Notes: generated by a model not told the origin, from the letters alone. 64,000 bases of DNA from an uncultured Pelagibacteraceae bacterium (GCA_902544065.1 CACCAS010000001.1:66458-130457), one strand, 5' to 3'; shown: positions 21,274-52,678, counted from the first letter of the stretch. Program-made: numbers and translations.

Positions 21274-21726
21274 ATGACACAAAATACATTTATGGAACAG
21301 GCAATAATGAATGCTTTTAAAGGACTAGATTTGGGAGAGGTACCAGTCGGTTGTGTGATCGTGAATCAAGATAATAAGATAATCTCCCAATCATATAATA
21401 AAGTTACAGCGGATAACGATCCCACTGCTCATGCTGAGATTAACGCCATAAGGCAAGCATGCGTTTCCTTAAAATCTGAGCGTTTAATCGATTGTAGTAT
21501 TTATGTTACTTTAGAGCCTTGTATGATGTGTGCCGCCGCAATATCGAAATCTAAGTTAAAAAGACTATATTATGGAGCAGATGATATGAATTTTGGTTCT
21601 ATCAACGGTGGATTTAATTTTTTTCAAACAAAAAATTGCAATCATGTGCCAGAGATTTATGATAGTATTTCAAAAATTCAATGTGAGAATTTAATAAACG
21701 ATTTTTTTAAGGGTAAAAGACCATGA
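21274..21726 (+). CDS. tadA: tRNA-specific adenosine deaminase
   Basis: 150 aa. Zinc motifs 'HAEINAI' and 'PCMMCAAA'. Confidence 0.9.
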
Positions 21727-22928
21727 CAATTTCAGCTAAGGCACAGCAAACAACAGATCGACTAAACACATTTATGGAAAAAAATGTGTATCCAAATAAT
21801 GATACATACCATAAGCAAATTGAAGACTTTGGAAATGATCGTTGGCAGGTTGTCCCTATTGTTGAAGATTTAAAAAAAGAAGCAAAAAAAGAGGATCTCT
21901 GGAATTTGTTTTTACCAGACAGCGATTTAGGGCATGGACTTTCAAATGCTGAATATGCTCCTATGTGTGAAATAATGGGAAGAGCTATGTGGTCTGCAGA
22001 AGTATTTAACTGCTCTGCGCCTGATACAGGTAACATGGAGGTTCTAGTTAGATACGGAACTGATGAACAGAAAGATAAATATCTTAAACCACTTCTTAAT
22101 GGCGAAATTCGATCTGCATTTGCAATGACAGAACCAGCCGTTGCATCTTCAGATGCAACTAATATTGAAAGTGAGATAAAAAAAGAGGGTAATCAATATG
22201 TCTTAAATGGGACAAAATGGTGGACGTCGGGAGCAATGGATCCAAGATGCCAGTTTTACATTTTTATGGGCAAAACTGATCCTGAGAATGAAAATATTCA
22301 TAAACAACAGTCCATGATTTTAGTTGATAAGGATACACCAGGTATTAAAATAAAAAGACATTTGCCAGTTTTTGGATTTGACGATGCTCCACACGGGCAT
22401 GCGGAGGTAGAGTTCAAGGACGTAAAGGTGCCACCTGAAAATATGCTTTTGGGAGAGGGTAGAGGATTTGAAATCGCTCAAGGCAGACTTGGTCCGGGAC
22501 GAATTCATCATTGCATGAGAACAATTGGACTTGCGGAAGTTGCGCTGGAGGCCATGTGCAAACGATTGATGAGCCGTAAAGCTTTTGGAAAAGAGGTAGT
22601 TAGGCATTCTGTGTGGCAAGAGAGAATTGCTGATGCTCGAATTAATATAGAGATGACAAGACTTTTGACCCTAAAAGCAGCATCAATGATGGATGAGGTA
22701 GGCAATAAAGTTGCTAAAAATGAGATAGCTATGATTAAGGTTGCAGCACCGAATATGGCACTTAAGATAATAGATGATGCGATTCAAGCCTTTGGAGGCG
22801 CAGGAGTCACTACTGATCCAAGATTAGCCCAAGCTTATGCCGGCATGAGAACGCTACGTTTAGCAGACGGGCCAGATGAAGTTCATAGACTCTCAATTGC
22901 TAGAAATGAATTAAAAAAATATCTCTAA
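21723..22928 (+). CDS. acyl-CoA dehydrogenase, ACAD10/ACAD11-type
   Basis: 401 aa. Strong resemblance to the ACAD domain of eukaryotic ACAD10/11 ('[16 protein letters not shown]', 'KWWTSGA', '[13 protein letters not shown]'). Asp replaces the usual catalytic Glu in the YEGT-equivalent motif. Confidence 0.88.
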
Positions 22929-24333: not shown

Positions 24334-25398
24334 TTATTTAATTCCTTCTACAATACTCCAACCGAGCTTACCTAATATTGGAACAAAAGCTTCATAATTT
24401 TTAGCTTCTGAGCTTGAAGCAGTTCCATCTCTTACGCGACCCACTATGCCTTGCGCTATTCCTGCAAGTCTAAATATATTATATGCCATATAGAAATCCC
24501 AATTATCAATTTTTTCTCTTCCTGTTTTTTTGTAATAAAGTTCAGCATACTCACTTTCTGATGGAATATTAAGTGACTTAAGATCCGATCCCATCATTCC
24601 TAATCCTTTTGCGCCCGCTGGTAATCTCCATGACATCATATGATATGTAAAATCTGCTATTGGGTTTCCTAAAGTAGATAATTCCCAGTCTAATATTGCT
24701 TTTACTTCATGAGTTATAGGGTCAAATATCATATTGTCTAATCTGAAATCCCCATGAACGATCGATGTCTCTTGATCAGAAGGTATATTTTTAGGTAACC
24801 ATTCTATCAATTCATTAATCTCAGGTATCATTTGTGTTTCAGAATCTTTGTACTGTTTTGTCCATCTATGAATTTGTCTGCCCATGTAGTTTTCGTGTTT
24901 ACCATAATCAGCTAAATTAACTTTATTAAAATCAACGTTATGTAACTTTGCAATAGTATCATTCATAGATAAGTAAATTTCCCTTCTTTGATTTGGATCA
25001 CATCCTGGTAAAAGAAGTTCCCAATAAATGTTACCAACGACATGGTCCATAACAAAAAAAGGTGTACCAATTACTGTTTCATCATCACAATAACCAAATG
25101 TCTTGGGAACAGGAACATCGGTATCATGAAGAGCTGTCATTACCCTGCATTCTCTATCCACTGCATGAGCTGATTTAAGAAGTTTACCTGGTGGCTTCCT
25201 TCTAAGAACAAAATTATTAATATTTGCTTCAACTAGATAAGTTGGATTTGACTGTCCACCCTTAAATTGTGTTATCTGACTTATCTGAATATTATTACCT
25301 ATAAGCTTTTTTAGATAATCATTTAAAGATTCTTTATTAATTTTGAGTTTATCATCAACTTGCTTTGTGCCTGAAAAAATTTCATTTCTATCAGTCAT
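24334..25398 (-). CDS. phosphotransferase (APH/choline-kinase fold), ACAD10/11 N-terminal kinase-domain type
   Basis: 354 aa. 'FKGGQSNPTYLV', 'VLRRKPPGKLLKSAHAVDRE', 'GTPFFVMDHV', and the catalytic loop 'HGDFRLDNMIF' / 'ILDWE'. Confidence 0.85.
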   Translation of the reverse strand: MTDRNEIFSGTKQVDDKLKINKESLNDYLKKLIGNNIQISQITQFKGGQSNPTYLVEANINNFVLRRKPPGKLLKSAHAVDRECRVMTALHDTDVPVPKTFGYCDDETVIGTPFFVMDHVVGNIYWELLLPGCDPNQRREIYLSMNDTIAKLHNVDFNKVNLADYGKHENYMGRQIHRWTKQYKDSETQMIPEINELIEWLPKNIPSDQETSIVHGDFRLDNMIFDPITHEVKAILDWELSTLGNPIADFTYHMMSWRLPAGAKGLGMMGSDLKSLNIPSESEYAELYYKKTGREKIDNWDFYMAYNIFRLAGIAQGIVGRVRDGTASSSEAKNYEAFVPILGKLGWSIVEGIK

Positions 25399-41567: not shown

Positions 41568-42263
41568 ATGGCTCGTATTACTGTAGAAGATTGTATTAAG
41601 CTTATTAATAATCAGTATGATCTGGTTATCCTCGCAAAGGAAAGAGCAGTTCAATTGGGAAGAGGCGCTACCCCTGCTGTAGATCCTGAAAATGACAAAA
41701 AACCTGTAATTGCCCTTAGAGAAATAAGCGAGTCCAAGATTACAGCTGAAGAGTTAAAAGACAGTATTGTTTCTAAATTGAGGCAAATTCCTGATTATGA
41801 GGAAGAAGAGGAATTAGAAGAAGTTGATAACGATACTTTTAGACAAATGTTCCAGGGCGGTCTGTCTAAATCTGAAATGGAAAAGTCAGCAACACGTAAA
41901 TTTACAGCTAGATCACCTAGAGTTGAAACGAGAGCTAAGCCAGTTGAAGATACGATGAGTGATGTTGAAGAGACACCTATGAGTTCAGCAGTCATAAATG
42001 AAACTCAAGTTCTTAATGAGACTGAGGAAAAATTAGATACTTCAGAAGTTGAAGTTCCAATCACGGATAGTATTGAAACAGTTCATGAGGAAACAACTGA
42101 TCAAGCTATAGATGACCGAATTAAAGAAAATCCATCTTCTGAAGAGGAAAGTATTTCTGCTAGCGATCATATAGAAGATAATAATGAAAATGACGTCATT
42201 AATGTAGAAGAGCTGTCTGAAGTTACATCCGATATTGAAGAAGAGAATATTCCTAAAGAATAA
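41568..42263 (+). CDS. rpoZ: DNA-directed RNA polymerase omega subunit with a long acidic C-terminal extension
   Basis: 231 aa. The N-terminal ~70 aa are canonical omega ('MARITVEDCI...NQYDLVILAKERAVQL...KPVIALREI'). The remaining ~155 aa are E/D/S/T-rich and low in complexity. Confidence 0.85.
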   Translation: MARITVEDCIKLINNQYDLVILAKERAVQLGRGATPAVDPENDKKPVIALREISESKITAEELKDSIVSKLRQIPDYEEEEELEEVDNDTFRQMFQGGLSKSEMEKSATRKFTARSPRVETRAKPVEDTMSDVEETPMSSAVINETQVLNETEEKLDTSEVEVPITDSIETVHEETTDQAIDDRIKENPSSEEESISASDHIEDNNENDVINVEELSEVTSDIEEENIPKE

Positions 42264-42268
42264 TTATC

Positions 42269-43399
42269 ATGAATTTTGACTTTTCAGATGATCAAAAGCT
42301 TTTACGCGATCAAGCAAGAAAGTTTTTACAAGATAAATGTGACCGTAAGTCAGTAAGGAGTATCCTAGAAAATCATAAGCAGAGCTATAATGCTAAGTTA
42401 TGGTCTCAAATTTCTGAATTAGGTTGGACGGGTACAGCAATACCTGAAGAATATGGCGGACTTGGTTTAGGCATGTTAGAATTGTGCGTAATAGCTGAAG
42501 AGCTAGGTAGAGCTCTTGCACCCACACCATTTTCTTCTTCGATATATATTTTTGCCGAATTTTTAAAATCGTATGGTACGGATGAACAAAAGAAAAAATA
42601 TTTACCACTCATTGCATCTGGCGAAAAAATTGGAACATTTGCTTTATCTGAAACTAATGGGAAACCAAAACCGAATAATATTAAGACGCAATACGTTTTG
42701 GGTAAATTAAATGGATCTAAAAATCCGGTTTCAGATGGGGAGTCAGCAGATTATATCATTGTTGCAGCAAATTCTGACGGTAATTCGAATTATAATTCAC
42801 TCTCTCTTTATATTATTGATAGAAATGATCCAGGTGTAAATATTTCGAATTTAGAAACCATCGATCCTACAAGACCTGCTTGTACAGTAGATTTAGAAAA
42901 TGTTGCCTGTGAAAGACTCGGAGATGAAGGAATTGGATGGGAGATGATTGATAATATTTTTAATAGAGCAGCTGTTTTATTTTCATTCGAGCAAGTGGGT
43001 GGGGCGCAAGTTTCACTTGATGAAGCAAAAAAATATTCACTTGAGCGATTCGCTTTTGGAAAGCAAATAGGTGCATTTCAAGCTCTAAAGCATAAGATGG
43101 CAGATATGTACGTCAAAATTGAATTAGCAAGATCTAACGCTTATTATGGTGCCTGGGCGTTAAGTACAGACTCAAATGAGCTACCAATTGCCGCTGCAGG
43201 CGCAAGGGTTAGTGCCTCTGAAGCATACAATTTCGCATCTCAGGAAAATATTCAAATTCATGGAGGTGTTGGTTTTACTTGGGAATATGATTGCCACTTG
43301 TTTTATCGTAGATCTAAACTACTTTCTTTAAATATTGGCAGTATTCGTCAGTGGAAAGAAAATTTAATTTCAAATCTTGAAAAAAGGAATATAGTTTAA
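42269..43399 (+). CDS. acyl-CoA dehydrogenase family protein lacking both canonical catalytic-Glu positions (putative non-catalytic partner)
   Basis: 376 aa with an ACAD fold ('EEYGGLGLG', 'QIHGGVGFTWEYD'). The IVD-type site reads 'IFNRAAV' (Asn for Glu). The MCAD-type site reads 'LNIGS' (Ile for Glu). Confidence 0.85.
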   Translation: MNFDFSDDQKLLRDQARKFLQDKCDRKSVRSILENHKQSYNAKLWSQISELGWTGTAIPEEYGGLGLGMLELCVIAEELGRALAPTPFSSSIYIFAEFLKSYGTDEQKKKYLPLIASGEKIGTFALSETNGKPKPNNIKTQYVLGKLNGSKNPVSDGESADYIIVAANSDGNSNYNSLSLYIIDRNDPGVNISNLETIDPTRPACTVDLENVACERLGDEGIGWEMIDNIFNRAAVLFSFEQVGGAQVSLDEAKKYSLERFAFGKQIGAFQALKHKMADMYVKIELARSNAYYGAWALSTDSNELPIAAAGARVSASEAYNFASQENIQIHGGVGFTWEYDCHLFYRRSKLLSLNIGSIRQWKENLISNLEKRNIV

Positions 43400-43401
43400 A
43401 T

Positions 43402-44685
43402 ATGGACTTTAATGACACACCTCAAGAAGCTGAATTTAGAAAAAAAGTAAGAGCTTTTCTAGAAGCGAATGCGGAAAAAAGATCTACTCTATCTTCAAAG
43501 CCAAATGGCGACTCGGGATCGTCTATTTCAAGCGCTGGTGCACCAGAAACTGTAAAAGGTGAAGATGCGGCAAAGGTAGCGCTAGATAATGCTAAAGAAT
43601 GGCAAAGAAAAAAAGCTGATGCAGGATTTGCTGCTATTTTATGGCCAAAGGAATTCGGAGGCTACGGAGGAACTCCTATAGAGCAAGTTATATATGCTCA
43701 AGAAGAACATGACTATTTTGTTCATTCAGGATATTTTGAAATTGGTATAGGTATGCTTGGACCAACTATGATGGCTTGGGGTAAAGACGAGGATAAAAAA
43801 AGATACCTTCCAAAAATGATCACCGGTGAAGAAATATGGTGCCAATTATTTTCTGAACCCTCAGCAGGATCAGATTTAGCTGGTATAAGAATGAAGGCTG
43901 AAAAAGATGGTGACGAATGGGTACTAAATGGTCAAAAGGTATGGACTTCAGGAGCTCATTTTGCTGATTATGGAATGATTGTAGCACGATCTGACCCTAC
44001 TGCTCTAAAACATAAAGGGCTTACATATTTCTATGTTGATATGAAAACACCAGGAATTGAGGCTAAACCTATTAAACAGATTTCTGGATCAGCTAATTTC
44101 AATGAAGTATTCTTCAATGACGTCCGCATACCTGATAGTCAAAGAATTGGTGCGGAGGGTGATGGGTGGAAAGTATCACTTACTACTCTTATGAATGAAA
44201 GATTAGCGGTAGGAGATCCTCCTGGTTTAGATTTTGATCAAATTTTTGAAGCCTCTAAAGAGATAGAAGTTGAAGATGGTCTTGCTGTAAAAAATAGTGA
44301 AGTAAGACAAAAAATGGCTGACTGGTACATTCAGTCGAGGGGATTGCAATATACGAAATACAGGAGTATGACTGCTTTATCAAAAGGCCAAACACCTGGA
44401 CCAGAGCTCTCAATAAGCAAGTTAGTCACAGCATCGAAGATGCAAGATGTATCATCTTATGCACTGGATTTGATGGACATGTCAGGTATGGTTCATCAAG
44501 ATAAAAATCCGGTTCTTAAAAACTTATTCCAAAACGGTTATTTTTTCTCAGCTGCCATGAGAATTGCTGGTGGCACCGATGAAGTTTTAAGAAATATTAT
44601 TGCAGAGAGAGTCTTAGGTTTACCGCAAGATGAAAGATCAGATAAAAAACTGCCTTTCAATGAGTTGCCCTCAGGTAAAAACTAA
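43402..44685 (+). CDS. acyl-CoA dehydrogenase (IVD/LCAD-type catalytic Glu)
   Basis: 427 aa. 'WCQLFSEPSAGSDLAG', 'NGQKVWTSGA', 'LMNERLAVG' (Glu at the IVD position), 'IAGGTDEVLRNIIAE' (Gly at the MCAD position). Starts 2 nt after the upstream ACAD. Confidence 0.88.
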   Translation: MDFNDTPQEAEFRKKVRAFLEANAEKRSTLSSKPNGDSGSSISSAGAPETVKGEDAAKVALDNAKEWQRKKADAGFAAILWPKEFGGYGGTPIEQVIYAQEEHDYFVHSGYFEIGIGMLGPTMMAWGKDEDKKRYLPKMITGEEIWCQLFSEPSAGSDLAGIRMKAEKDGDEWVLNGQKVWTSGAHFADYGMIVARSDPTALKHKGLTYFYVDMKTPGIEAKPIKQISGSANFNEVFFNDVRIPDSQRIGAEGDGWKVSLTTLMNERLAVGDPPGLDFDQIFEASKEIEVEDGLAVKNSEVRQKMADWYIQSRGLQYTKYRSMTALSKGQTPGPELSISKLVTASKMQDVSSYALDLMDMSGMVHQDKNPVLKNLFQNGYFFSAAMRIAGGTDEVLRNIIAERVLGLPQDERSDKKLPFNELPSGKN

Positions 44686-44695
44686 CATCAGCTAA

Positions 44696-45547
44696 GTGTT
44701 CAGTACAATTTTTAGCAATGTTGCCTCAGGCGACTTGCTTTTTTCTATTACTTTATTGATCGGTACAGGTATTTTTGCTGGTTTTATAGCAGGTCTTTTT
44801 GGTATAGGAGGCGGTGTCGTCGTTGTGCCCGCGCTATATTATATTTTTACTCTTGCTGAAGTAGATGAAAGTATAAGAATGCACTTAGCAGTTGGAACAT
44901 CGCTTGCAAATATTGTCCCAATATCAATTATTTCTGCAGTAAGCCATGCCAGGAAAAATTCTGTGAATATAGATTTCTTAAAGTTTATATTTGTTTCTAT
45001 AATCGTTGGTGTAACTTGTGGCTCTATTGCTGTGTCTTATCTTGAGGGAAGCACGCTTATTTTGATTTATTCAATAATATTATTATTTGTCGCAGCACAA
45101 TTTTTTTTCTGGAAAGATAAATGGAGACTATCCTCTTCTTTTCCTAAAAATTTCACTGGTCATGGACTCGGTTCGGTGATTGGCTTTCTTTCCGTAATCA
45201 TTGGAGTAGGAGGAGGTTCAATAAGTATTCCTATACTTAAACTATATAATTTTGAAATTCACAAAGCGATTGGAACAGCAGCTGGAATCGGAACCATAGT
45301 GGCTGTACCAGGGACAATAGGCTTTATGATTGCTGGCTTACAAAACAATGTCGATTTACCATTATCCTTTGGCTATGTAAGCCTTGTAGGACTTATATTA
45401 ATTACACCTATTACAATAATTGGCGCACCGATTGGAGTTAAGTTTGCTCACTATTTATCTAAAAGTAAATTAAACTTTCTTTTTGGAATATTTATCTTGT
45501 TTATGTCGATTAGGTTCTATTTCGAATGGCTATCATTAACGAATTAA
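44696..45547 (+). CDS. TauE/SafE-family anion (sulfite/sulfonate) exporter-like membrane protein
   Basis: 283 aa, GTG start, about 8 TM segments with duplicated 'G(I/V)GGG..(V/S)(V/I)P' motifs typical of TauE/SafE (DUF81). Confidence 0.8.
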   Translation: MFSTIFSNVASGDLLFSITLLIGTGIFAGFIAGLFGIGGGVVVVPALYYIFTLAEVDESIRMHLAVGTSLANIVPISIISAVSHARKNSVNIDFLKFIFVSIIVGVTCGSIAVSYLEGSTLILIYSIILLFVAAQFFFWKDKWRLSSSFPKNFTGHGLGSVIGFLSVIIGVGGGSISIPILKLYNFEIHKAIGTAAGIGTIVAVPGTIGFMIAGLQNNVDLPLSFGYVSLVGLILITPITIIGAPIGVKFAHYLSKSKLNFLFGIFILFMSIRFYFEWLSLTN

Positions 45548-47373: not shown

Positions 47374-49611
47374 ATGCCTAAATTTTCTATAATACTATTT
47401 TTTTACTTTTCAATTTTGATGCATTCATTTGCTGATGAACAAACAATCTGGATTACACCAAATGAAACTGACTATTCAAGATTATCAACTGGTTTAGCTG
47501 GTTCAAATATTACAATAATAAGTGAGAATGAAATCAAAAACTTCAAGAATTTAACTCTTCCAGAAATAGTTGCAACACACTCAGGTGTTCAACTAAGGAA
47601 TCTATTTTCAAACGTAAACTCTACACAAACAACGTTAGATCTAAGAGGATTTGGAGAGTCAGCAAAAAACAATAATTTAATTTTACTTAATGGCCGTCGA
47701 CTGAACGACATAGATATGGCAGGAGTAAATTTCTCAATGGTTCCAATAAAATCCATAAAAAGAATAGAATTAATTCGCGGTGGATCAGCTTCTACAATTT
47801 ATGGTGATGGAGCAACTGGTGGGGCAATCAACATTGTTACAAAAAACGTTTTAGACACATCAATGATTCTTGAGTTTGGAACAAGATCTCATAACACCTA
47901 TTCTACTAATCTCTCGCTTCCAATCAAAATTGACAATACTTCAGGCATACTATTCTCTGCATCTATTAATGAAAGTGACACATATAGGCAGCGTTCAGAT
48001 TTTGAAAGCGAAAGTTATTTAATGAGATATAATATTAAAAAAGAAAATTATGACTTTCATCTAGATATTAATAACAGTTTATATGAACAATTACTTCCTG
48101 GGTCTAGGTATAAAGCAAATTTGAATGGATATACACCATCAGATCCTGTTGCCTGTAATCTATTGTCTGATAGCAGAACAGCTTTTCAAAAAGGAACATG
48201 GTATACTCTGACAGGACAATGTTTAACTAGGGACCCTGATTATGCGAAGTTTGATATCACAGCAATTACTGCTGGTACAAATATCGAATTAGATGATTTA
48301 ACTAATATTTTCATTAGTATTTCAAATAGAGATAAAGAACAGAAAGCCTTTGTTGCAAGTGGAACATCAACTTTAGGGAATCCAACCTCAGAGGATACCT
48401 TTAACCTTTACGAGTTAGAAACAGATTATTTATCACTTAGAACTGATCATAAAACATTTTTAGCTGATCAATTGACAACTTTAAGTATTGGGGTTGATTT
48501 TCAAGAAACTGATTACTCAAAAAAATCAAGTCAAAGTTCTTCACTTCAATTTGGAGGATTTGTTAACGCATCACAAGAAAGTAGAGCAATATATTCACAG
48601 AATTCTATAAATTTCAATGAAGGAAACTCAATTATGTCATTTGGAGCTAGGCTCGAAAATGCTGATTATAAAGTGAGAGAGTCATTTGATAAATCCGTGA
48701 GTAAGTATGCATCTAGTTCAGCGCGTGATCCGTATCAAACAAAAATGTCAAATCACGCTGTCAATATAGGCATTGAACACATTTTAGATAATCAAAATAG
48801 ATTATTTGCAAAATATGCTGAAGCTTTCCGAACTCCAGATTTAGACTCGAGAAATGAAACGTGTGTTAAAAGTTACAGTTACCCCTGTAGTCATCCGGCT
48901 TTTTTTCTTAAAGATCAAAAATCTGACGAGACTGAGATTGGCATTCGTCACAAACAAAATAATTTTAGTTTAAATGCAAGTATATTTGAGATGAATACAG
49001 TAAATGAAATAAGGTATATACCTGAAAAAAATAATACTAATCTAGATCCCATTAAGCGTAAGGGTCTTAATCTAGATTTTAATTATAATTTAAACAAAGA
49101 TATAAATATCGTTGGATCGTTTACGTATATTGATGCACATTTCACCTCTGGCTCACTTACTAGAGGATATTTTGAGGGAACCTATGCGGCTAATTCTCAA
49201 ACTGCGATTAGCAAAATGGACAGTAGTAGAAACTTAAATGACGGAACTTATAATATTGCCGGACTAAAAGTACCCCTGGTATCTGAATATATTTATAACT
49301 TAGGTTTAAATTATAATATGCCACGAGAAATATTATTTAAAATAAATATGTCATTTGTTGACGATATGTTTGTTTCAAATGATCAAGAAAATATAGAGCC
49401 TACCATACCAAGTTACTATTTATTTGATTTAAGCCTTAGTTCTGAAAATGAATATGGAACGTGGTCTTTTGGTATAGACAATATATTTAATACTAGTTAT
49501 TACAATTTTGCAGTTGCAAGTACTGACCATGTAGATCAGAGCTATGGGAGACAAAACATGTACCCAATGGAAAGAAGAAGTATCTTTTTAGATTATTCCT
49601 ATGAATTCTAG
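47374..49611 (+). CDS. TonB-dependent outer-membrane receptor (BtuB-like by context)
   Basis: 745 aa. Signal peptide, TonB-box-like 'EQTIWITP', plug domain ('RGFGESAKNNNLILLNGRRLND', 'IELIRGGSASTIYGDGATGGAINIVTK'), and a C-terminal '...YSYEF' terminal Phe. Lies downstream of the B12 riboswitch. Confidence 0.9.
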   Translation: MPKFSIILFFYFSILMHSFADEQTIWITPNETDYSRLSTGLAGSNITIISENEIKNFKNLTLPEIVATHSGVQLRNLFSNVNSTQTTLDLRGFGESAKNNNLILLNGRRLNDIDMAGVNFSMVPIKSIKRIELIRGGSASTIYGDGATGGAINIVTKNVLDTSMILEFGTRSHNTYSTNLSLPIKIDNTSGILFSASINESDTYRQRSDFESESYLMRYNIKKENYDFHLDINNSLYEQLLPGSRYKANLNGYTPSDPVACNLLSDSRTAFQKGTWYTLTGQCLTRDPDYAKFDITAITAGTNIELDDLTNIFISISNRDKEQKAFVASGTSTLGNPTSEDTFNLYELETDYLSLRTDHKTFLADQLTTLSIGVDFQETDYSKKSSQSSSLQFGGFVNASQESRAIYSQNSINFNEGNSIMSFGARLENADYKVRESFDKSVSKYASSSARDPYQTKMSNHAVNIGIEHILDNQNRLFAKYAEAFRTPDLDSRNETCVKSYSYPCSHPAFFLKDQKSDETEIGIRHKQNNFSLNASIFEMNTVNEIRYIPEKNNTNLDPIKRKGLNLDFNYNLNKDINIVGSFTYIDAHFTSGSLTRGYFEGTYAANSQTAISKMDSSRNLNDGTYNIAGLKVPLVSEYIYNLGLNYNMPREILFKINMSFVDDMFVSNDQENIEPTIPSYYLFDLSLSSENEYGTWSFGIDNIFNTSYYNFAVASTDHVDQSYGRQNMYPMERRSIFLDYSYEF

Positions 49612-49666
49612 AATAGGTTTTGTCATAAATGCGTTGATATTAATAAATTGTTGAGTATCTTTAAGT

Positions 49667-50188
49667 ATGATGAAATTAAATAAAAATAATTACTATGTCA
49701 TCATAGGCATTATCGTATTACTCGCCATGGCTAGATTGCTTCCACATCCACCAAACTTCACTCCAATTCTTGGTATGGCTGTATTTTCTGGAGCAATAAT
49801 AAGTAGAAGATTGATTGCCTATTTAATTCCTCTAGCTGCTATGTTTCTTAGTGACTTATATTTAGGCTTACATTCCAGCATGCCTATTATTTATTTCTCT
49901 TTAGCAGTCTGTGTTTTGATTGGAACATTCATTAAGGCAAGAGTAACTATTTTGAATTCTTTTTTAAGTATCAGTTTAGGGGTATTAGTATTCTTCTTAA
50001 TCACAAATTTTATGGTTTGGTATGGATCAGGAATGTATGAGTATAGTATTTCAGGTCTTATGACTTGTTACTTTATGGGACTGCCTTTTGTGCAAAATAC
50101 ATTTATTTCAAGTATTTTGTATGGAATGGGAGCTTTCTTAATCTACGATATAATCAATAAACGTATGATTTTTGGCAATAATGCTTAA
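49667..50188 (+). CDS. small polytopic membrane protein, candidate ECF-S/BtuM-like corrinoid transporter
   Basis: 173 aa with 5-6 hydrophobic helices. Contains 'LLPHPPNFTPILGMAVF'. Sits 55 nt downstream of the riboswitch-controlled receptor on the same strand. The function is a context-based hypothesis. Confidence 0.6.
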   Translation: MMKLNKNNYYVIIGIIVLLAMARLLPHPPNFTPILGMAVFSGAIISRRLIAYLIPLAAMFLSDLYLGLHSSMPIIYFSLAVCVLIGTFIKARVTILNSFLSISLGVLVFFLITNFMVWYGSGMYEYSISGLMTCYFMGLPFVQNTFISSILYGMGAFLIYDIINKRMIFGNNA

Positions 50189-50254: not shown

Positions 50255-51457
50255 ATGGATACAGCATTTTCAAATGAAGATTTAAAATTTCAATCAGACG
50301 TAAGAGAATTTATCTCAAACAATTATCCAAAAGAGCTGAAAGATTCAATTGGTACTAAAAGGAAAACTGGCAAAGAGTTGTCCCGTGATGACTTAATGTC
50401 ATGGCATAAAATTCTAGGCAAACACAATGGATGGTCAGCCCCGGGATGGCCTAAACAATATGGAGGAGCAGAATTTTCTCCAACACAAAAATATATTTTT
50501 GAGCAAGAATGTGCTCGAGCTGAATGCCAATACATCATGCCTTTTGGCGTAAACATGGTTGGCCCGGTTATTTATACATTTGGCAATGACGAACAAAAAG
50601 CAAAACATCTTCCAGGAATTCTTAGTGGAGATGTATTTTGGTGCCAGGGATATTCAGAGCCAGGGTCAGGATCTGATTTAGCATCTCTTAAAACAAGCGC
50701 AGTCAAAGAAGGTGACCATTATATCGTTAACGGTCAAAAAACTTGGACTACTTTAGCACAGCACGCAGACTGGATTTTTTGTCTAGTAAGAACAAACCCA
50801 GATGCGGAAAAACCTCAACAGGGAATCTCATTTCTTTTGATTGATATGAAAACTCCAGGCATTACTGTTCGTCCAATTAAGCTTATGGACGGATCTCACG
50901 AAGTTAATGAAACATGGTTTGACAATGTAAAAGTTCCGGTTGAGAATCTGATTGGGCAAGAAAACATGGGTTGGACCTACGCAAAATTTTTACTAGCCCA
51001 TGAAAGATCAGGTATTGCTGGTGTCGCGAGGTCCAAAAAAGCCTTAGAAAGAATAAAGCAAATTGCGAGCGCTGAAATGTCTTATGGTGAACCGTTAATA
51101 CAAGATCCTGCATTTAAATCTAAAATAGCAAACGCTGAACTTGAATTAAATTCTTTAGAATATACTGAGCTTAGAACTTTAGCGAAAGATTCAGCGGGAA
51201 AAGGTCCTGGTCCAGAGTCTTCACTCTTGAAAATTAAGGGTACTGATATTCAACAAATGGTTACTGAACTTGCGATGGAAGCAGTTGGATATTATGCAAA
51301 CCCGCACTTGGGCACTACATTAAGTAATGAATATGTAGGACCAGATTATGCAACTAATTTATCAGGATCATACTTCAATTTCAGAAAAGCATCTATTTAT
51401 GGTGGTTCTAATGAAATTCAGAGAAATATTATCGCTAAGATGGTTCTTGGATTATAA
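50255..51457 (+). CDS. acyl-CoA dehydrogenase (IVD/LCAD-type catalytic Glu)
   Basis: 400 aa. 'WCQGYSEPGSGSDLAS', 'NGQKTWTT', 'LLAHERSGIAG' (Glu at the IVD position), 'IYGGSNEIQRNIIAK' (Gly at the MCAD position). Confidence 0.88.
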   Translation: MDTAFSNEDLKFQSDVREFISNNYPKELKDSIGTKRKTGKELSRDDLMSWHKILGKHNGWSAPGWPKQYGGAEFSPTQKYIFEQECARAECQYIMPFGVNMVGPVIYTFGNDEQKAKHLPGILSGDVFWCQGYSEPGSGSDLASLKTSAVKEGDHYIVNGQKTWTTLAQHADWIFCLVRTNPDAEKPQQGISFLLIDMKTPGITVRPIKLMDGSHEVNETWFDNVKVPVENLIGQENMGWTYAKFLLAHERSGIAGVARSKKALERIKQIASAEMSYGEPLIQDPAFKSKIANAELELNSLEYTELRTLAKDSAGKGPGPESSLLKIKGTDIQQMVTELAMEAVGYYANPHLGTTLSNEYVGPDYATNLSGSYFNFRKASIYGGSNEIQRNIIAKMVLGL

Positions 51458-51499
51458 AATTTTTTGACAATCTAGCTGTCAATATATAGGACTATCTCC

Positions 51500-52678
51500 A
51501 TGAATTTTGATTATACAGAAGAACAAACTCTTCTTGAAAACATGGTTACTTCATTTGTAAGAGATGACTATGACTGGGATACAAGATGCTCAATTGTTAA
51601 AACTGAAGAAGGATGGAAAGAAGAGAACTGGAAGAAGTTTGCTGAACTAGGTCTTTTGGGAGTTCCCTTTGAAGAGGATCATGGTGGATTGGGTGGTGAA
51701 GCCACTGACATAATGATTGTAATGGAGCAATTTGGAAAAGGCCTTGTTGTAGAGCCTTACATGCCTTCAATAATTCTAGCTGGAGGTCTCATCTCTAAAC
51801 TGGGGTCAGCAGATCAAAAAAATTCAATTATTCCAGAAATTATTTCAGGTAATAAACGTTATGTTTTTGCATACGCAGAACCTCAAAGTAGGTTTGATTT
51901 ATTTGATGTCAAATGTTCAGCAAATCTTGATGGTGATAATTATATTATTAATGGATTTAAGTCAGTAGTCTTTGGTGCTGGCATGGCAACTCACTTAATT
52001 ATTTCAGCAAGGACTGAAGGAGATCAAAGGTCAAAGTCGGGAATTACATTATTTCTGGTTGATATAAAATCTGACGGTATTACTTTACAGAATTATCCTA
52101 CAATAGATGAGTACAGAGCATCAGAAGTTGTTATTGAAAACTTAAGTGTGTCAAAAGAAAATATTTTAGGCGAGTTGGGCAACTCTTATGAAGCAATTGA
52201 AGAACAAGTAGATTTATCTACAATTGCAATATGCTCGGAAGCTGTGGGAATTTTACAAGTACTTAAAGACTCTACGAATGATTATTGTAAAAATAGAAAA
52301 CAGTTTGGACAGCCAATTAGTGCAAATCAAGCGATACAGCACCGTCTTGTCGATATGATGATTGAATATGAGCAAGCAAAATCAATTCTCTATATGGCAA
52401 TTACAGCTGACCTTAGCAATCCAAACGAAAGAAGAAAAGCAGCATCTGCTGCAAAAGCTCGTATCGGAAAAGCTATTAAATTTGTTGGAGAAAATGCTAT
52501 TCAATTACACGGTGGTATGGGTGTTGTTGACGAGTATATGATTAGTCATTTTTTTAAAAGAGCAACAATGATCGGTATTCTGTTCGGCAATGTTGATTTC
52601 CACATGAAAAGATATATTGATTTGACACAATCTGATATTCAGTCAATAAACGAAGACGACGGAATTAATCTTTCTTAG
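51500..52678 (+). CDS. acyl-CoA dehydrogenase family protein lacking both canonical catalytic-Glu positions (putative non-catalytic partner)
   Basis: 392 aa with an ACAD fold ('EEDHGGLGG', 'QLHGGMGVVDEY'). The IVD site reads 'VDLSTIA' (Ser for Glu). The MCAD site reads 'ILFGNVD' (Phe for Glu). Confidence 0.85.
   Translation: MNFDYTEEQTLLENMVTSFVRDDYDWDTRCSIVKTEEGWKEENWKKFAELGLLGVPFEEDHGGLGGEATDIMIVMEQFGKGLVVEPYMPSIILAGGLISKLGSADQKNSIIPEIISGNKRYVFAYAEPQSRFDLFDVKCSANLDGDNYIINGFKSVVFGAGMATHLIISARTEGDQRSKSGITLFLVDIKSDGITLQNYPTIDEYRASEVVIENLSVSKENILGELGNSYEAIEEQVDLSTIAICSEAVGILQVLKDSTNDYCKNRKQFGQPISANQAIQHRLVDMMIEYEQAKSILYMAITADLSNPNERRKAASAAKARIGKAIKFVGENAIQLHGGMGVVDEYMISHFFKRATMIGILFGNVDFHMKRYIDLTQSDIQSINEDDGINLS

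What the first reader, a model, noticed from the sequence alone, without database searches (positions are those of the whole stretch)
42269..44685. Tandem acyl-CoA dehydrogenase pair in which only one partner keeps a catalytic Glu (alpha2beta2-type ACAD)
The two ACAD genes are separated by 2 nt. The 427-aa protein has Glu at the IVD/LCAD catalytic position ('LMNERLAVG') and Gly at the MCAD position ('IAGGTDEV'). The 376-aa protein has neither ('IFNRAAV', 'LNIGS'). This is the signature of heterotetrameric alpha2beta2 ACADs, with one active site per heterodimer, as established for the Mycobacterium ChsE1-ChsE2 and ChsE4-ChsE5 (FadE) steroid side-chain dehydrogenases. Those enzymes act on bulky acyl-CoA substrates. 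Such pairs are not expected housekeeping genes in a minimal marine heterotroph, and the substrate is unknown.
Basis: partly seen in the sequence, partly recalled or inferred. Interest (0 to 1): 0.55.

Follow-up and report, generated by a model that had tools for sequence, protein, structure and literature searches.

The report
Two-subunit acyl-CoA dehydrogenase gene pair
Two adjacent fatty-acid-type dehydrogenase genes in a SAR11 (Pelagibacter-family) genome most likely build one enzyme from a working subunit and a helper subunit. This design is already known from steroid- and dicarboxylate-degrading bacteria, but here it sits in the core genome of a very small genome and its substrate is unknown.

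Summary
Genes at 42269-43399 (376 aa, "beta1") and 43402-44685 (427 aa, "alpha1") are ACAD paralogs 2 nt apart. Alpha1 Glu266 aligns with the catalytic Glu247 of M. tuberculosis ChsE4. Beta1 has Asn and Ile at the two known catalytic-base positions.

The losses are complementary. Alpha1 keeps the flavin-ring motifs but lacks the motifs that bind the ADP end of a neighbour's FAD. Beta1 shows the reverse. Both patterns hold in 73 distinct orthologs of each. Beta sits directly upstream of alpha in 76 of 77 loci, spanning Alpha- and Gammaproteobacteria and other phyla. Beta1 is under strong purifying selection (dN/dS about 0.06). An alpha2beta2-type ACAD is therefore well supported, although stoichiometry cannot be tested here.

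- The pair is a vertically inherited core element of Pelagibacteraceae and is widespread elsewhere.
- It is not in a steroid cluster, and it has Ala where the steroid enzymes ChsE4 and Tcur3483 have Gly.
- The closest curated family for alpha1 is PimC, not ChsE.
- A second, clearly PimCD-like pair lies 5.5 kb downstream.

This is a new member of a known kind, with unknown substrate.

The parts
42269..43399 (+). beta1: 376-aa ACAD paralog with no catalytic base and a degenerate flavin-ring site; the proposed non-catalytic subunit
   Evidence: The AF2 model has pLDDT 90.9 and a canonical ACAD fold. dN/dS is about 0.06.
43402..44685 (+). alpha1: 427-aa ACAD paralog; the proposed catalytic, flavin-ring-binding subunit
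   Evidence: Its best PDB matches are Tcur3483 (6wy8_B/6wy9_A) and ChsE4 (4x28_A), E about 1e-45.
43397..43404 (+). Junction TAA-AT-ATG: a 2-nt spacer between the beta1 stop and the alpha1 start, which suggests translational coupling
   Evidence: The same 2-nt spacer occurs in 37 related loci, and spacers are 2-155 nt in all 76 loci with the pair.
44197..44199 (+). Alpha1 Glu266 codon, the predicted catalytic base
   Evidence: It aligns with ChsE4 Glu247, is invariant in 73/73 orthologs, and the codon was checked.
43852..43875 (+). Alpha1 SEPSAGSD (residues 151-158), the same-subunit FAD motif of the middle domain
   Evidence: It matches the TEPxAGSD-type motif of Bcd, 1ukw, ChsE4 and Tcur3483. 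S151, E152, P153, G156, S157 and D158 are invariant.
43942..43950 (+). Alpha1 W181-T182-S183, the flavin-ring-flanking motif
   Evidence: It aligns with ChsE4 'WTS' and Bcd 'FIT' and is invariant in orthologs.
44566..44583 (+). Alpha1 AGGTDE (residues 389-394): Gly390 sits at the MCAD-type base position, and Ala389 sits at the position of Tcur3483 Gly363
43046..43081 (+). Beta1 RFAFGKQIGAFQ (residues 260-271), the motif that in canonical ACADs binds the ADP end of the neighbouring subunit's FAD
   Evidence: It aligns with Bcd 'REQFGRSISKFQ'. R260, F263, G264 and Q271 are invariant in 73 orthologs. The motif is absent from alpha1, alpha2, ChsE4 and Tcur3483.
43253..43273 (+). Beta1 QIHGGVG (residues 329-335), the second neighbour-FAD (pyrophosphate) motif
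   Evidence: It aligns with Bcd 'QIFGGYG'. Q329, H331, G332, G333 and G335 are invariant. Alpha1 lacks it ('LMDMSGM').
42647..42667 (+). Beta1 SETNGKP (residues 127-133), the degenerate remnant of the TEPxxGSD same-subunit FAD motif
   Evidence: The Pfam middle domain scores below its cut-off.
42962..42964 (+). Beta1 Asn232 codon, at the ChsE4/IVD-type base position
   Evidence: Orthologs show N40/D31/A2.
43334..43336 (+). Beta1 Ile356 codon, at the MCAD-type base position
   Evidence: Orthologs show I44/L29.
41568..42263 (+). rpoZ, 5 nt upstream of beta1 on the same strand; probably co-transcribed. This is context, not part of the enzyme.
   Evidence: The same order is seen in SAR11 locus L086.
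44696..45547 (+). TauE/SafE-family permease, 10 nt downstream of alpha1. This is context; the adjacency is ancestral synteny.
   Evidence: TauE lies downstream of the pair, with DusA between them, in L046, L047, L050, L051, L056 and L063.
50255..52678 (+). Second pair of the same architecture: alpha2 (50255-51457, 400 aa, E250) and beta2 (51500-52678, 392 aa), PimC/PimD-like

Best explanation
The two genes encode the two subunits of one heteromeric (most likely alpha2beta2) FAD-dependent acyl-CoA dehydrogenase.

Alpha1 (427 aa) holds the flavin ring, the acyl-CoA pocket and the catalytic base Glu266. Beta1 (376 aa) has no base and no working flavin-ring site of its own. It keeps the two motifs that, in every ACAD dimer, reach across the interface and bind the ADP-ribose end of the partner's FAD. 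Alpha1 has lost exactly those motifs. An alpha-alpha dimer could therefore not complete an FAD site, and a beta-beta dimer would have no active site. Only alpha-beta gives one complete site, so a tetramer would have two.

The 2-nt spacer suggests coupled translation and equal amounts of the two subunits. Electrons would pass to ETF, as for other ACADs; this step is inferred because ETF genes are not in the window.

The substrate is not shown. My best guess, at low confidence, is a non-steroid acyl-CoA that is omega-functionalised (for example dicarboxylic), branched or alicyclic, taken from marine dissolved organic matter.

Shown here: the sequence anatomy, its conservation, the synteny and the selection. 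Inferred: the quaternary structure, the FAD count, the electron acceptor and the substrate class.
For: - The ORFs and the 2-nt spacer are confirmed.
- Alpha1's top solved relatives are the alpha subunits Tcur3483 and ChsE4 (E 9e-46 to 2e-44). The next hits are at 2e-32, and E266 aligns with ChsE4 E247.
- In the MAFFT alignment with ChsE4, Tcur3483, Bcd and Thermus ACAD, alpha1 and alpha2 share SEPxxGSD, W-T-[ST] and GG[ST]xE with ChsE4 and Tcur3483, and lack ERxxFG and QxxGGxG. Beta1 and beta2 show the reverse.
- All of these states are conserved in 73 distinct orthologs of each subunit.
- Beta lies directly upstream of alpha in 76 of 77 loci at 50-98% identity. These include SAR86, Rhodobiaceae, Reyranella, a Burkholderiales isolate, and MAGs labelled Flavobacteriaceae, Thermoanaerobaculia and Hydrogenedentales.
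- dN/dS is 0.06 for beta1 and 0.02-0.04 for alpha1.
- Beta1 folds confidently as a complete ACAD (pLDDT 90.9; TM about 0.9).
- In NCBIfam, alpha1's best hit is PimC large subunit. For beta1, IpdE2 and PimD small subunit rank second and third, behind acryloyl-CoA reductase AcrC.
- The definition of the architecture comes from PMC8399759 and PMC11153573.
Against: - No experiment or multimer model was possible, so stoichiometry and FAD content are untested.
- By sequence and by fold, beta1 is closest to ordinary homotetrameric ACADs (4l1f, 1ukw). Known beta subunits rank lower: Tcur3481 is ninth in Foldseek, and ChsE5 scores E 2.5e-25. Common descent of beta1 with ChsE5/PimD-type subunits is therefore not demonstrated.
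- 31 of 73 beta orthologs carry Asp at the ChsE4-type base position.
- One locus (L053) has an alpha ortholog with no adjacent beta.
- E128, K151 and D156 are invariant in beta1's supposedly dead pocket and remain unexplained.
Confidence: 0.8

Rival explanations
1. These are two independent homo-oligomeric enzymes that are merely neighbours. Alpha1 would be an ordinary IVD/LCAD-type ACAD. Beta1 would be an ACAD-fold enzyme with a different chemistry that needs no Glu base, for example a desulfinase-like or oxidase-like activity, or one using Asp in some orthologs.
For: Beta1's best sequence and fold matches are homotetrameric ACADs. ACAD-fold enzymes without the Glu exist: NCBIfam lists 3-sulfinopropanoyl-CoA desulfinase, which beta1 hits weakly (94 bits). 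Asp occupies the base position in 31 of 73 orthologs. A TauE-family permease lies next to the pair.
Against: A beta1 homodimer would lack the TEPxxGSD and aromatic-x-Thr flavin contacts. An alpha1 homodimer would lack the ERxxFG and QxxGGxG contacts. The losses are exactly complementary and conserved. Adjacency in 76 of 77 loci across phyla is far tighter than for unrelated neighbours. The desulfinase score is 94 against a cut-off of 600. The TauE adjacency is inherited synteny, with DusA in between in other lineages.
Confidence: 0.07
2. Beta1 is a catalytically dead paralog with a role other than completing alpha1's FAD site. It could be a regulatory or chaperone-like pseudoenzyme, or a partner that can also pair with alpha2 of the second pair (mixed complexes).
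For: Beta1 is conserved yet lacks a base. The window holds two alpha-type and two beta-type genes. Invariant E128, K151 and D156 in the vestigial pocket hint at a retained ligand or structural role.
Against: The residues that stay invariant in beta1 are precisely the neighbour-FAD contact motifs. Each beta is tightly linked to its own alpha. Beta1 and beta2 are only 29% identical. Orthologs outside SAR11 carry pair 1 without pair 2 in the same locus.
Confidence: 0.08
3. The pair is a true ChsE-type steroid side-chain dehydrogenase, and SAR11 degrades sterols or bile-acid-like compounds.
For: Alpha1's best solved relatives are steroid ACAD alpha subunits. Paralogs at about 47% identity on roseobacter and Massilia plasmids sit in clusters with MaoC hydratases and OB-fold/thiolase genes, which resemble steroid side-chain clusters.
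Against: The window holds only housekeeping genes around the pair, with no MaoC/ChsH, Ltp2, CoA-ligase or ring-cleavage genes. Alpha1 has Ala389 where Tcur3483 has Gly363 and ChsE4 also has Gly. The only heteromeric ACADs with solved structures that these searches returned are steroid enzymes, so the top-hit pattern is biased. NCBIfam places alpha1 nearest PimC. Context in 36 distant loci shows no steroid genes.
Confidence: 0.03

Closest known systems
ChsE4-ChsE5 (FadE26-FadE27) of M. tuberculosis and Tcur3481-Tcur3483 of Thermomonospora curvata: alpha2beta2 steroid side-chain ACADs (PDB 4x28, 6wy8)
   Same: The genes are adjacent. Only alpha has the catalytic Glu, at the IVD/LCAD-type position. 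Alpha keeps the flavin-ring motifs and lacks the neighbour-FAD motifs. These alpha subunits are alpha1's best solved relatives, at E about 1e-45. The architecture is defined in PMC8399759 and PMC11153573.
   Different: There is no steroid-catabolic gene context. Alpha1 has Ala at the Tcur3483 Gly363 position. Beta1 is no closer to ChsE5 or Tcur3481 than to ordinary ACADs. The host is a streamlined marine oligotroph.
PimC-PimD pimeloyl-CoA dehydrogenase large and small subunits (Rhodopseudomonas palustris; TIGR03204/TIGR03203) and the PimCD-like pair needed for growth on C8-C12 dicarboxylates in beta-proteobacteria (PMC12543098)
   Same: This is a two-gene ACAD of Proteobacteria that is not linked to steroids. 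Alpha1's best curated family hit is PimC (213 bits). The second pair in the window is clearly of this family (498 and 376 bits). The RB-TnSeq paper itself proposes a heterotetramer.
   Different: Pair 1 scores far below the equivalog cut-offs (213 against 624; 162 against 653). Its gene order is small then large, the reverse of pimC-pimD. There is no pimFAB-type operon around it. Alpha1 and alpha2 are only 31-34% identical.
IpdE1-IpdE2 (FadE30-FadE33), the heterotetrameric ACAD of steroid ring C/D degradation
   Same: Beta1 hits the IpdE2 model (173 bits), mainly over its C-terminal half, which carries the neighbour-FAD motifs.
   Different: The score is below the cut-off of 450. IpdE2 is shorter (311-position model). 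There is no ipd-type context.
Homotetrameric ACADs (MCAD, IVD, butyryl-CoA dehydrogenase 4l1f, Thermus 1ukw)
   Same: The three-domain fold is the same; the beta1 model superposes at TM about 0.9. The neighbour-FAD motifs of beta1 are the canonical ones.
   Different: In canonical enzymes each subunit has a base and a complete set of FAD contacts. Here each protein has only half of the set.

Membership tests
alpha2beta2 heterotetrameric ACAD (architecture as in ChsE4-ChsE5, ChsE1-ChsE2, Tcur3481-3483) | Two ACAD paralogs encoded by adjacent, co-oriented genes | tested here: met
   The spacer is 2 nt. The pair is adjacent in 76 of 77 related loci.
alpha2beta2 heterotetrameric ACAD (architecture as in ChsE4-ChsE5, ChsE1-ChsE2, Tcur3481-3483) | Only one subunit of the pair carries the catalytic glutamate | tested here: met
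   Alpha1 E266 aligns with ChsE4 E247 and is invariant. Beta1 has N232 and I356, and no ortholog has Glu at either position.
alpha2beta2 heterotetrameric ACAD (architecture as in ChsE4-ChsE5, ChsE1-ChsE2, Tcur3481-3483) | Alpha binds the isoalloxazine ring; beta contacts only the ADP-ribose part of that FAD | tested here: met
   This was tested at motif level only. Alpha1 has SEPSAGSD, WTS and GGTDE but no ERxxFG or QxxGGxG. Beta1 has RFAFGK..Q and QIHGGVG but SETNGKP and NPVSDG instead of the ring motifs. Which motif contacts which part of FAD rests on established MCAD/ACAD structures and on PMC11153573.
alpha2beta2 heterotetrameric ACAD (architecture as in ChsE4-ChsE5, ChsE1-ChsE2, Tcur3481-3483) | Both proteins are required for a stable, active complex, with two FAD per tetramer | not testable with these tools
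   This needs co-expression, SEC-MALS or native MS, and FAD quantification. No multimer prediction was available.
Steroid-degrading subgroup of the alpha2beta2 ACADs (ChsE, IpdE, Scd, Tcur3481-3483) | Located in a steroid-catabolic gene cluster with MaoC-type hydratases, Ltp2/thiolase, CoA ligases and ring-degradation genes | tested here: not met
   The neighbours are rpoZ, TauE, phosphoglucomutase, gshA, rsmE, ubiA, glmU, glmS and similar genes. No such genes appear in 36 distant loci.
Steroid-degrading subgroup of the alpha2beta2 ACADs (ChsE, IpdE, Scd, Tcur3481-3483) | Glycine next to the flavin in alpha (Tcur3483 Gly363). That this Gly is characteristic of steroid ACADs is recalled from the title of the paper behind 6wy8/6wy9, which is not held in the library. 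| tested here: not met
   Alpha1 has Ala389 (A in 71 of 73 orthologs) and alpha2 has Tyr382. ChsE4 and wild-type Tcur3483 have Gly, and 6wy9 is the G363A variant.
PimC/PimD pimeloyl-CoA dehydrogenase (TIGR03204/TIGR03203 equivalogs) | Score above the curated equivalog cut-offs | tested here: not met
   Pair 1 scores 213 against 624 and 162 against 653. Pair 2 scores 498 against 624 and 376 against 653: closest family, but still below the cut-off.
PimC/PimD pimeloyl-CoA dehydrogenase (TIGR03204/TIGR03203 equivalogs) | Gene order large then small subunit, inside a pimFABCDE-type beta-oxidation operon | tested here: not met
   Pair 1 is ordered small then large with no beta-oxidation neighbours. 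Pair 2 has the large-then-small order but only an SDR gene, on the opposite strand, next to it.
Canonical homotetrameric ACAD | Each subunit has a catalytic base and a full set of same-subunit and neighbour-subunit FAD contacts | tested here: not met
   Each protein carries only one half of the set. Beta1's Pfam middle domain scores below its cut-off.
3-sulfinopropanoyl-CoA desulfinase type (ACAD fold without the Glu) | Score above the NCBIfam NF042439 cut-off | tested here: not met
   Beta1 scores 94 bits against a cut-off of 600.

The most novel reading that the evidence does not exclude
The beta1-alpha1 orthologous group is conserved as a stand-alone two-gene unit in SAR11, SAR86 and many other bacteria. 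It may be a heteromeric ACAD dedicated to an abundant but so far unrecognised class of non-steroid acyl-CoA substrates from marine dissolved organic matter. Candidates are terpenoid-derived or alicyclic carboxylic acids, or omega-functionalised or sulfated alkyl chains.

The hints are neighbours in subsets of loci: a P450terp-like CYP108, a luciferase-like monooxygenase and an alpha/beta hydrolase in one alphaproteobacterial lineage, and alkyl sulfatases in SAR86 and four other loci. If so, the split-subunit design would be a general solution for awkward substrates rather than a steroid speciality. Its retention twice in a streamlined genome would point to a significant carbon source for the ocean's most abundant heterotroph.
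Probability: 0.2. Interest if true: 0.65.

Novelty: new member of a known kind. Interest (0 to 1): 0.35.

Why it matters
In the papers I could search, heteromeric ACADs are discussed almost only in steroid degradation. PimCD-type enzymes are the one hinted exception. This work shows the same split-site design in an uncharacterised orthologous group that is core to Pelagibacteraceae and common in other marine and soil bacteria. SAR11 also keeps two such pairs within 10 kb.

Three things follow:
- Annotation: both genes are currently named only 'acyl-CoA dehydrogenase family protein', and beta1-type proteins should not be counted as independent enzymes in metabolic models.
- Biochemistry: the pair is a clean, small target for co-expression.
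- Ecology: identifying the substrate would say something about what SAR11 oxidises.

It does not change the understanding of how ACADs work.

Tried and rejected
- **Exact-sequence look-up of alpha1:** it is not on record.
- **Fold comparison of a confident beta1 model:** all ACADs superpose at TM 0.85-0.92. The fold therefore cannot separate beta-type from ordinary subunits and gives no residue-level answer.
- **Substrate inference from gene context:**
  - No beta-oxidation partner is conserved next to the pair.
  - A MarR gene lies upstream in 6 loci.
  - An alkyl sulfatase lies nearby in 10 loci.
  - A CYP108-like P450 lies nearby in 2 loci (L065, L066).
  - These are lineage-restricted hints, not proof.
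- **TauE adjacency as a clue to a sulfonate substrate:** rejected as a functional link. Other Alphaproteobacteria have the order beta-alpha-DusA-TauE-PGM, so the SAR11 adjacency looks like inherited synteny tightened by gene loss.
- **Promoter and terminator scan:** 42 promoter-like sites against 48 expected from shuffles, so it is uninformative. One terminator-like hairpin at 44720-44734 lies inside the start of the TauE gene.
- **Primary papers on ChsE4-ChsE5, FadE28-29 and IpdE1-E2:** not held in the library. The definitions were taken from two open reviews or papers instead.
- **Residue-level alignment of beta1 to ChsE5 or Tcur3481:** not obtained, because the PDB tool prints only the top hits, which are generic ACADs.
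- **Plasmid paralogs at 47% identity:** these sit in multi-pair clusters and were judged paralogous, not orthologous, to the SAR11 pair.
Full report
**What is there.** The window is from a Pelagibacteraceae (SAR11) genome. A scan of one genome per species found loci 97-98% identical at protein level in many Pelagibacteraceae single-cell genomes. ORFs lie at 42269-43399 (376 aa, here beta1) and 43402-44685 (427 aa, here alpha1), both on the + strand. The junction is TAA-AT-ATG, a 2-nt spacer. Both proteins have the N-terminal, middle and C-terminal ACAD Pfam domains. The middle domain of beta1, which in ACADs contacts the flavin, scores 32.0 bits against a cut-off of 33.3.

**Catalytic residues.**
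- Alpha1's best solved relatives are the alpha subunits of two structurally characterised heterotetramers: Tcur3483 (6wy8_B/6wy9_A, E 9e-46 to 3e-45) and ChsE4 (4x28_A, 1.6e-44). The next hits are at about 2e-32.
- In those alignments alpha1 'LMNERLAVG' pairs with ChsE4 'LNHERVAL'. Counting from the printed coordinates, the aligned Glu is ChsE4 Glu247. That Glu247 is the catalytic base is established knowledge. PMC11153573 states that the alpha subunit carries the catalytic Glu.
- Alpha1 has Gly390 where MCAD-type enzymes have their Glu ('IAGGTDEV' against 'FGGGTNEV').
- Beta1 aligned to butyryl-CoA dehydrogenase 4l1f ends 'LLSLNIG' against 'ITQIYEG', so Ile356 replaces the MCAD-type Glu.
- In the multiple alignment, beta1 'IFNRAAV' places Asn232 at the ChsE4/IVD-type position.

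**Complementary FAD motifs.** A MAFFT alignment compared the four window ACADs with ChsE4, Tcur3483, 4l1f and 1ukw.

| Motif | Role in canonical ACADs | alpha1, alpha2, ChsE4, Tcur3483 | beta1, beta2 |
|---|---|---|---|
| [ST]EPxxG[ST]D | flavin ring, same subunit | present | degenerate: 'SETNGKP' (beta1), 'AEPQSRF' (beta2) |
| aromatic-x-[ST] | flanks the flavin ring | present: 'WTS', 'WTT' or 'FTS' | degenerate: 'NPVSDG' (beta1), 'VVFGAG' (beta2) |
| GG[ST]xE | C-terminal segment, same subunit | present | absent |
| [EN]RxxFG...Q | ADP end of the neighbour's FAD | absent | present |
| Q[IL]HGGxG | pyrophosphate of the neighbour's FAD | absent | present |

Which motif touches which part of FAD rests on established ACAD structures. 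It also rests on the statement that in ChsE4-ChsE5 the alpha subunit binds the isoalloxazine and the beta subunit the ADP-ribose (PMC11153573). PMC8399759 adds that there are two FAD and two active sites per tetramer. So neither protein alone could assemble a complete site, and together they give one per heterodimer.

**Is it more than chance?**
- I extracted orthologs from 80 related loci, giving 73 distinct sequences of each subunit.
- In alpha1, E266, S151/E152/P153/G156/S157/D158, W181/T182/S183 and G390/G391/D393/E394 are invariant.
- In beta1, R260, F263, G264, Q271, Q329, H331, G332, G333 and G335 are invariant.
- The two base positions in beta1 are N40/D31/A2 and I44/L29, never Glu.
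- Beta lies immediately upstream of alpha in 76 of the 77 loci that include upstream DNA, with spacers of 2-155 nt; 37 loci have the 2-nt spacer.
- At 50-60% identity these loci include SAR86, Rhodobiaceae and Parvibaculales MAGs, Reyranella, Caenispirillum, Quisquiliibacterium (Burkholderiales), and MAGs labelled Flavobacteriaceae, Thermoanaerobaculia and Hydrogenedentales.
- Against SAR11 orthologs, dN/dS is about 0.06 for beta1 and 0.02-0.04 for alpha1. Beta1 is therefore a maintained protein, not a decaying copy.
- An AlphaFold2 model of beta1 is confident (mean pLDDT 90.9, pTM 0.90) and is a complete ACAD fold.

**What the fold search does and does not say.** Foldseek against the PDB gives TM 0.85-0.92 to essentially every ACAD. 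Tcur3481, a known beta subunit, ranks ninth. By sequence, too, beta1 is nearer generic ACADs (4l1f at 8e-46) than Tcur3481 (2e-31) or ChsE5 (2.5e-25). So the alpha-type subunits look like one clade with shared derived losses. I cannot show that beta1 shares a specific origin with the ChsE5, PimD or IpdE2 subunits.

**A second pair.**
- The window holds alpha2 (50255-51457, 400 aa, 'LLAHERSGI', 'IYGGSNEIQ') and beta2 (51500-52678, 392 aa), 42 nt apart.
- Alpha1 and alpha2 are 31-34% identical, beta1 and beta2 29%, and alpha against beta about 23%. These are two old alpha/beta pairs.
- NCBIfam places pair 2 next to PimC large subunit (498 bits, cut-off 624) and PimD small subunit (376 bits, cut-off 653).
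- Alpha1's best family is also PimC (213 bits). Beta1's best are AcrC (194), IpdE2 (173) and PimD (162), all far below their cut-offs.
- An RB-TnSeq study found a PimCD-like pair to be needed specifically on C8-C12 dicarboxylic acids in four beta-proteobacteria. That study itself suggested a heterotetramer (PMC12543098).
- Pair 2 is present about 5.5 kb downstream of pair 1 in every SAR11 locus long enough to show it (35 loci).

**Genomic setting.**
- The window is core genome. It includes murA/aroA-type EPSP-family synthase, hisD, hisS/hisZ, groEL, ileS, purD, lipid A genes, glmU, glmS, DAHP synthase, nadE and gltX.
- Pair 1 lies 5 nt after rpoZ and 10 nt before a TauE/SafE-family permease gene, all on one strand. 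The same arrangement is seen in an independent SAR11 genome.
- Upstream ubiA-rsmE-gshA, and downstream TauE and phosphoglucomutase, are also found around the pair in Rhodobiaceae-type MAGs. There, DusA lies between the pair and TauE.
- The locus is therefore inherited vertically within Alphaproteobacteria. The TauE adjacency in SAR11 is best read as old synteny tightened by gene loss, not as evidence for a sulfonate substrate.
SAR11 keeps two of them.

**Substrate.**
- No beta-oxidation partner is conserved beside the pair in 36 distant loci or in three further contigs.
- There are lineage-restricted hints:
  - A MarR regulator lies upstream in 6 loci.
  - An alkyl sulfatase lies convergent to alpha in 6 SAR86 loci and within about 5 kb in four other loci.
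  - In L065, and by gene-cluster assignment also L066, a P450 lies directly downstream. In L065 it is followed by a luciferase-like monooxygenase and an alpha/beta hydrolase. The L065 P450 is P450terp/CYP108-like (E 4e-131).
- Paralogs at about 47% identity on Sulfitobacter and Massilia plasmids sit in clusters with three ACAD pairs, MaoC hydratases, OB-fold/thiolase genes and TRAP transporters.
- Against a steroid substrate: no steroid genes are nearby, and alpha1 has Ala389 where Tcur3483 has Gly363 and ChsE4 also has Gly. PDB entry 6wy9 is the G363A variant. The functional meaning of that glycine is recalled from the title of a paper that is not held.
- I therefore commit only to a non-steroid acyl-CoA, possibly omega-functionalised, branched or alicyclic, at low confidence.

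**Verdict.** The alpha2beta2-type reading is the best explanation (about 0.8). It is inferred from sequence anatomy, conservation, synteny and selection, not demonstrated. The steroid analogy should be limited to architecture. This is a new member of a known kind of enzyme. Its interest lies in its wide distribution, its retention in duplicate in a streamlined genome, and its unknown substrate.

**Open points.**
- Asp occupies the base position in 31 beta orthologs.
- E128, K151 and D156 are invariant in beta1's vestigial pocket.
- One locus (L053) has alpha without an adjacent beta.

Noticed in passing
window 50255-52678 (+): A second ACAD pair of the same split design: alpha2 (400 aa, E250) and beta2 (392 aa). 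It is the closest match in the window to PimC/PimD pimeloyl-CoA dehydrogenase (498 and 376 bits, both below the equivalog cut-offs). It is conserved about 5.5 kb downstream of pair 1 in 35 SAR11 loci.
   Followed up: partly
window 47374-50188 (+): A TonB-dependent receptor (745 aa, Plug plus barrel) and a DUF6580 membrane protein lie directly upstream of the PimCD-like pair on the same strand. From memory, TonB-dependent receptors are considered rare or absent in SAR11, so this may deserve its own look. The same receptor is present in SAR11 locus L086.
   Followed up: no
window 21723-22928 (+) and 24334-25398 (-): A fifth ACAD-family gene (401 aa) ends in 'LADGPDEVH'. An APH-family phosphotransferase gene lies two genes away, with a class-V aminotransferase between them. 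From memory this resembles a split bacterial version of ACAD10/ACAD11 (kinase plus ACAD acting on 4-hydroxyacyl-CoA). A similar ACAD-SDR-phosphotransferase set sits beside the ACAD pairs on the Massilia plasmid (L082).
   Followed up: no
window 41568-42263 (+): RpoZ is 231 aa, but only residues 8-59 match the Rpb6/omega domain. The rest is a long, highly acidic Glu/Asp/Ser-rich tail. The gene ends 5 nt before beta1.
   Followed up: no
window 42650-42652, 42719-42721, 42734-42736 (beta1 E128, K151, D156): Three charged residues inside beta1's degenerate flavin pocket are invariant in 73 orthologs. Nothing I tested explains this. They may fill the empty site, or they may bind something else.
   Followed up: no
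beta1 position 232 in loci L045-L080: 31 of 73 distinct beta1 orthologs, mostly outside SAR11, have Asp rather than Asn at the ChsE4/IVD-type base position. They still lack the flavin-ring motifs.
   Followed up: partly
L058, L060, L061, L062, L064, L068 (SAR86) and L065, L066, L069, L076: Alkyl sulfatase genes (metallo-beta-lactamase plus Alkyl_sulf_dimr plus Alkyl_sulf_C domains) lie next to or within about 5 kb of the orthologous pair in two unrelated lineages. In L065, and by cluster assignment L066, a P450 lies directly downstream of alpha; the L065 copy was confirmed as P450terp-like CYP108.
   Followed up: partly
L053 9828-11048: This is the only locus with an alpha1 ortholog (57% identity) but no beta gene in the 9.8 kb upstream. 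It comes from a MAG, so this may be an assembly artefact or a real exception.
   Followed up: no
window 43477-43581 (alpha1 residues about 26-60): SAR11 alpha1 carries a Ser/Gly/Ala-rich insertion of about 20 residues near the N-terminus. Orthologs outside SAR11 are 408-414 aa, against 427 aa here.
   Followed up: no
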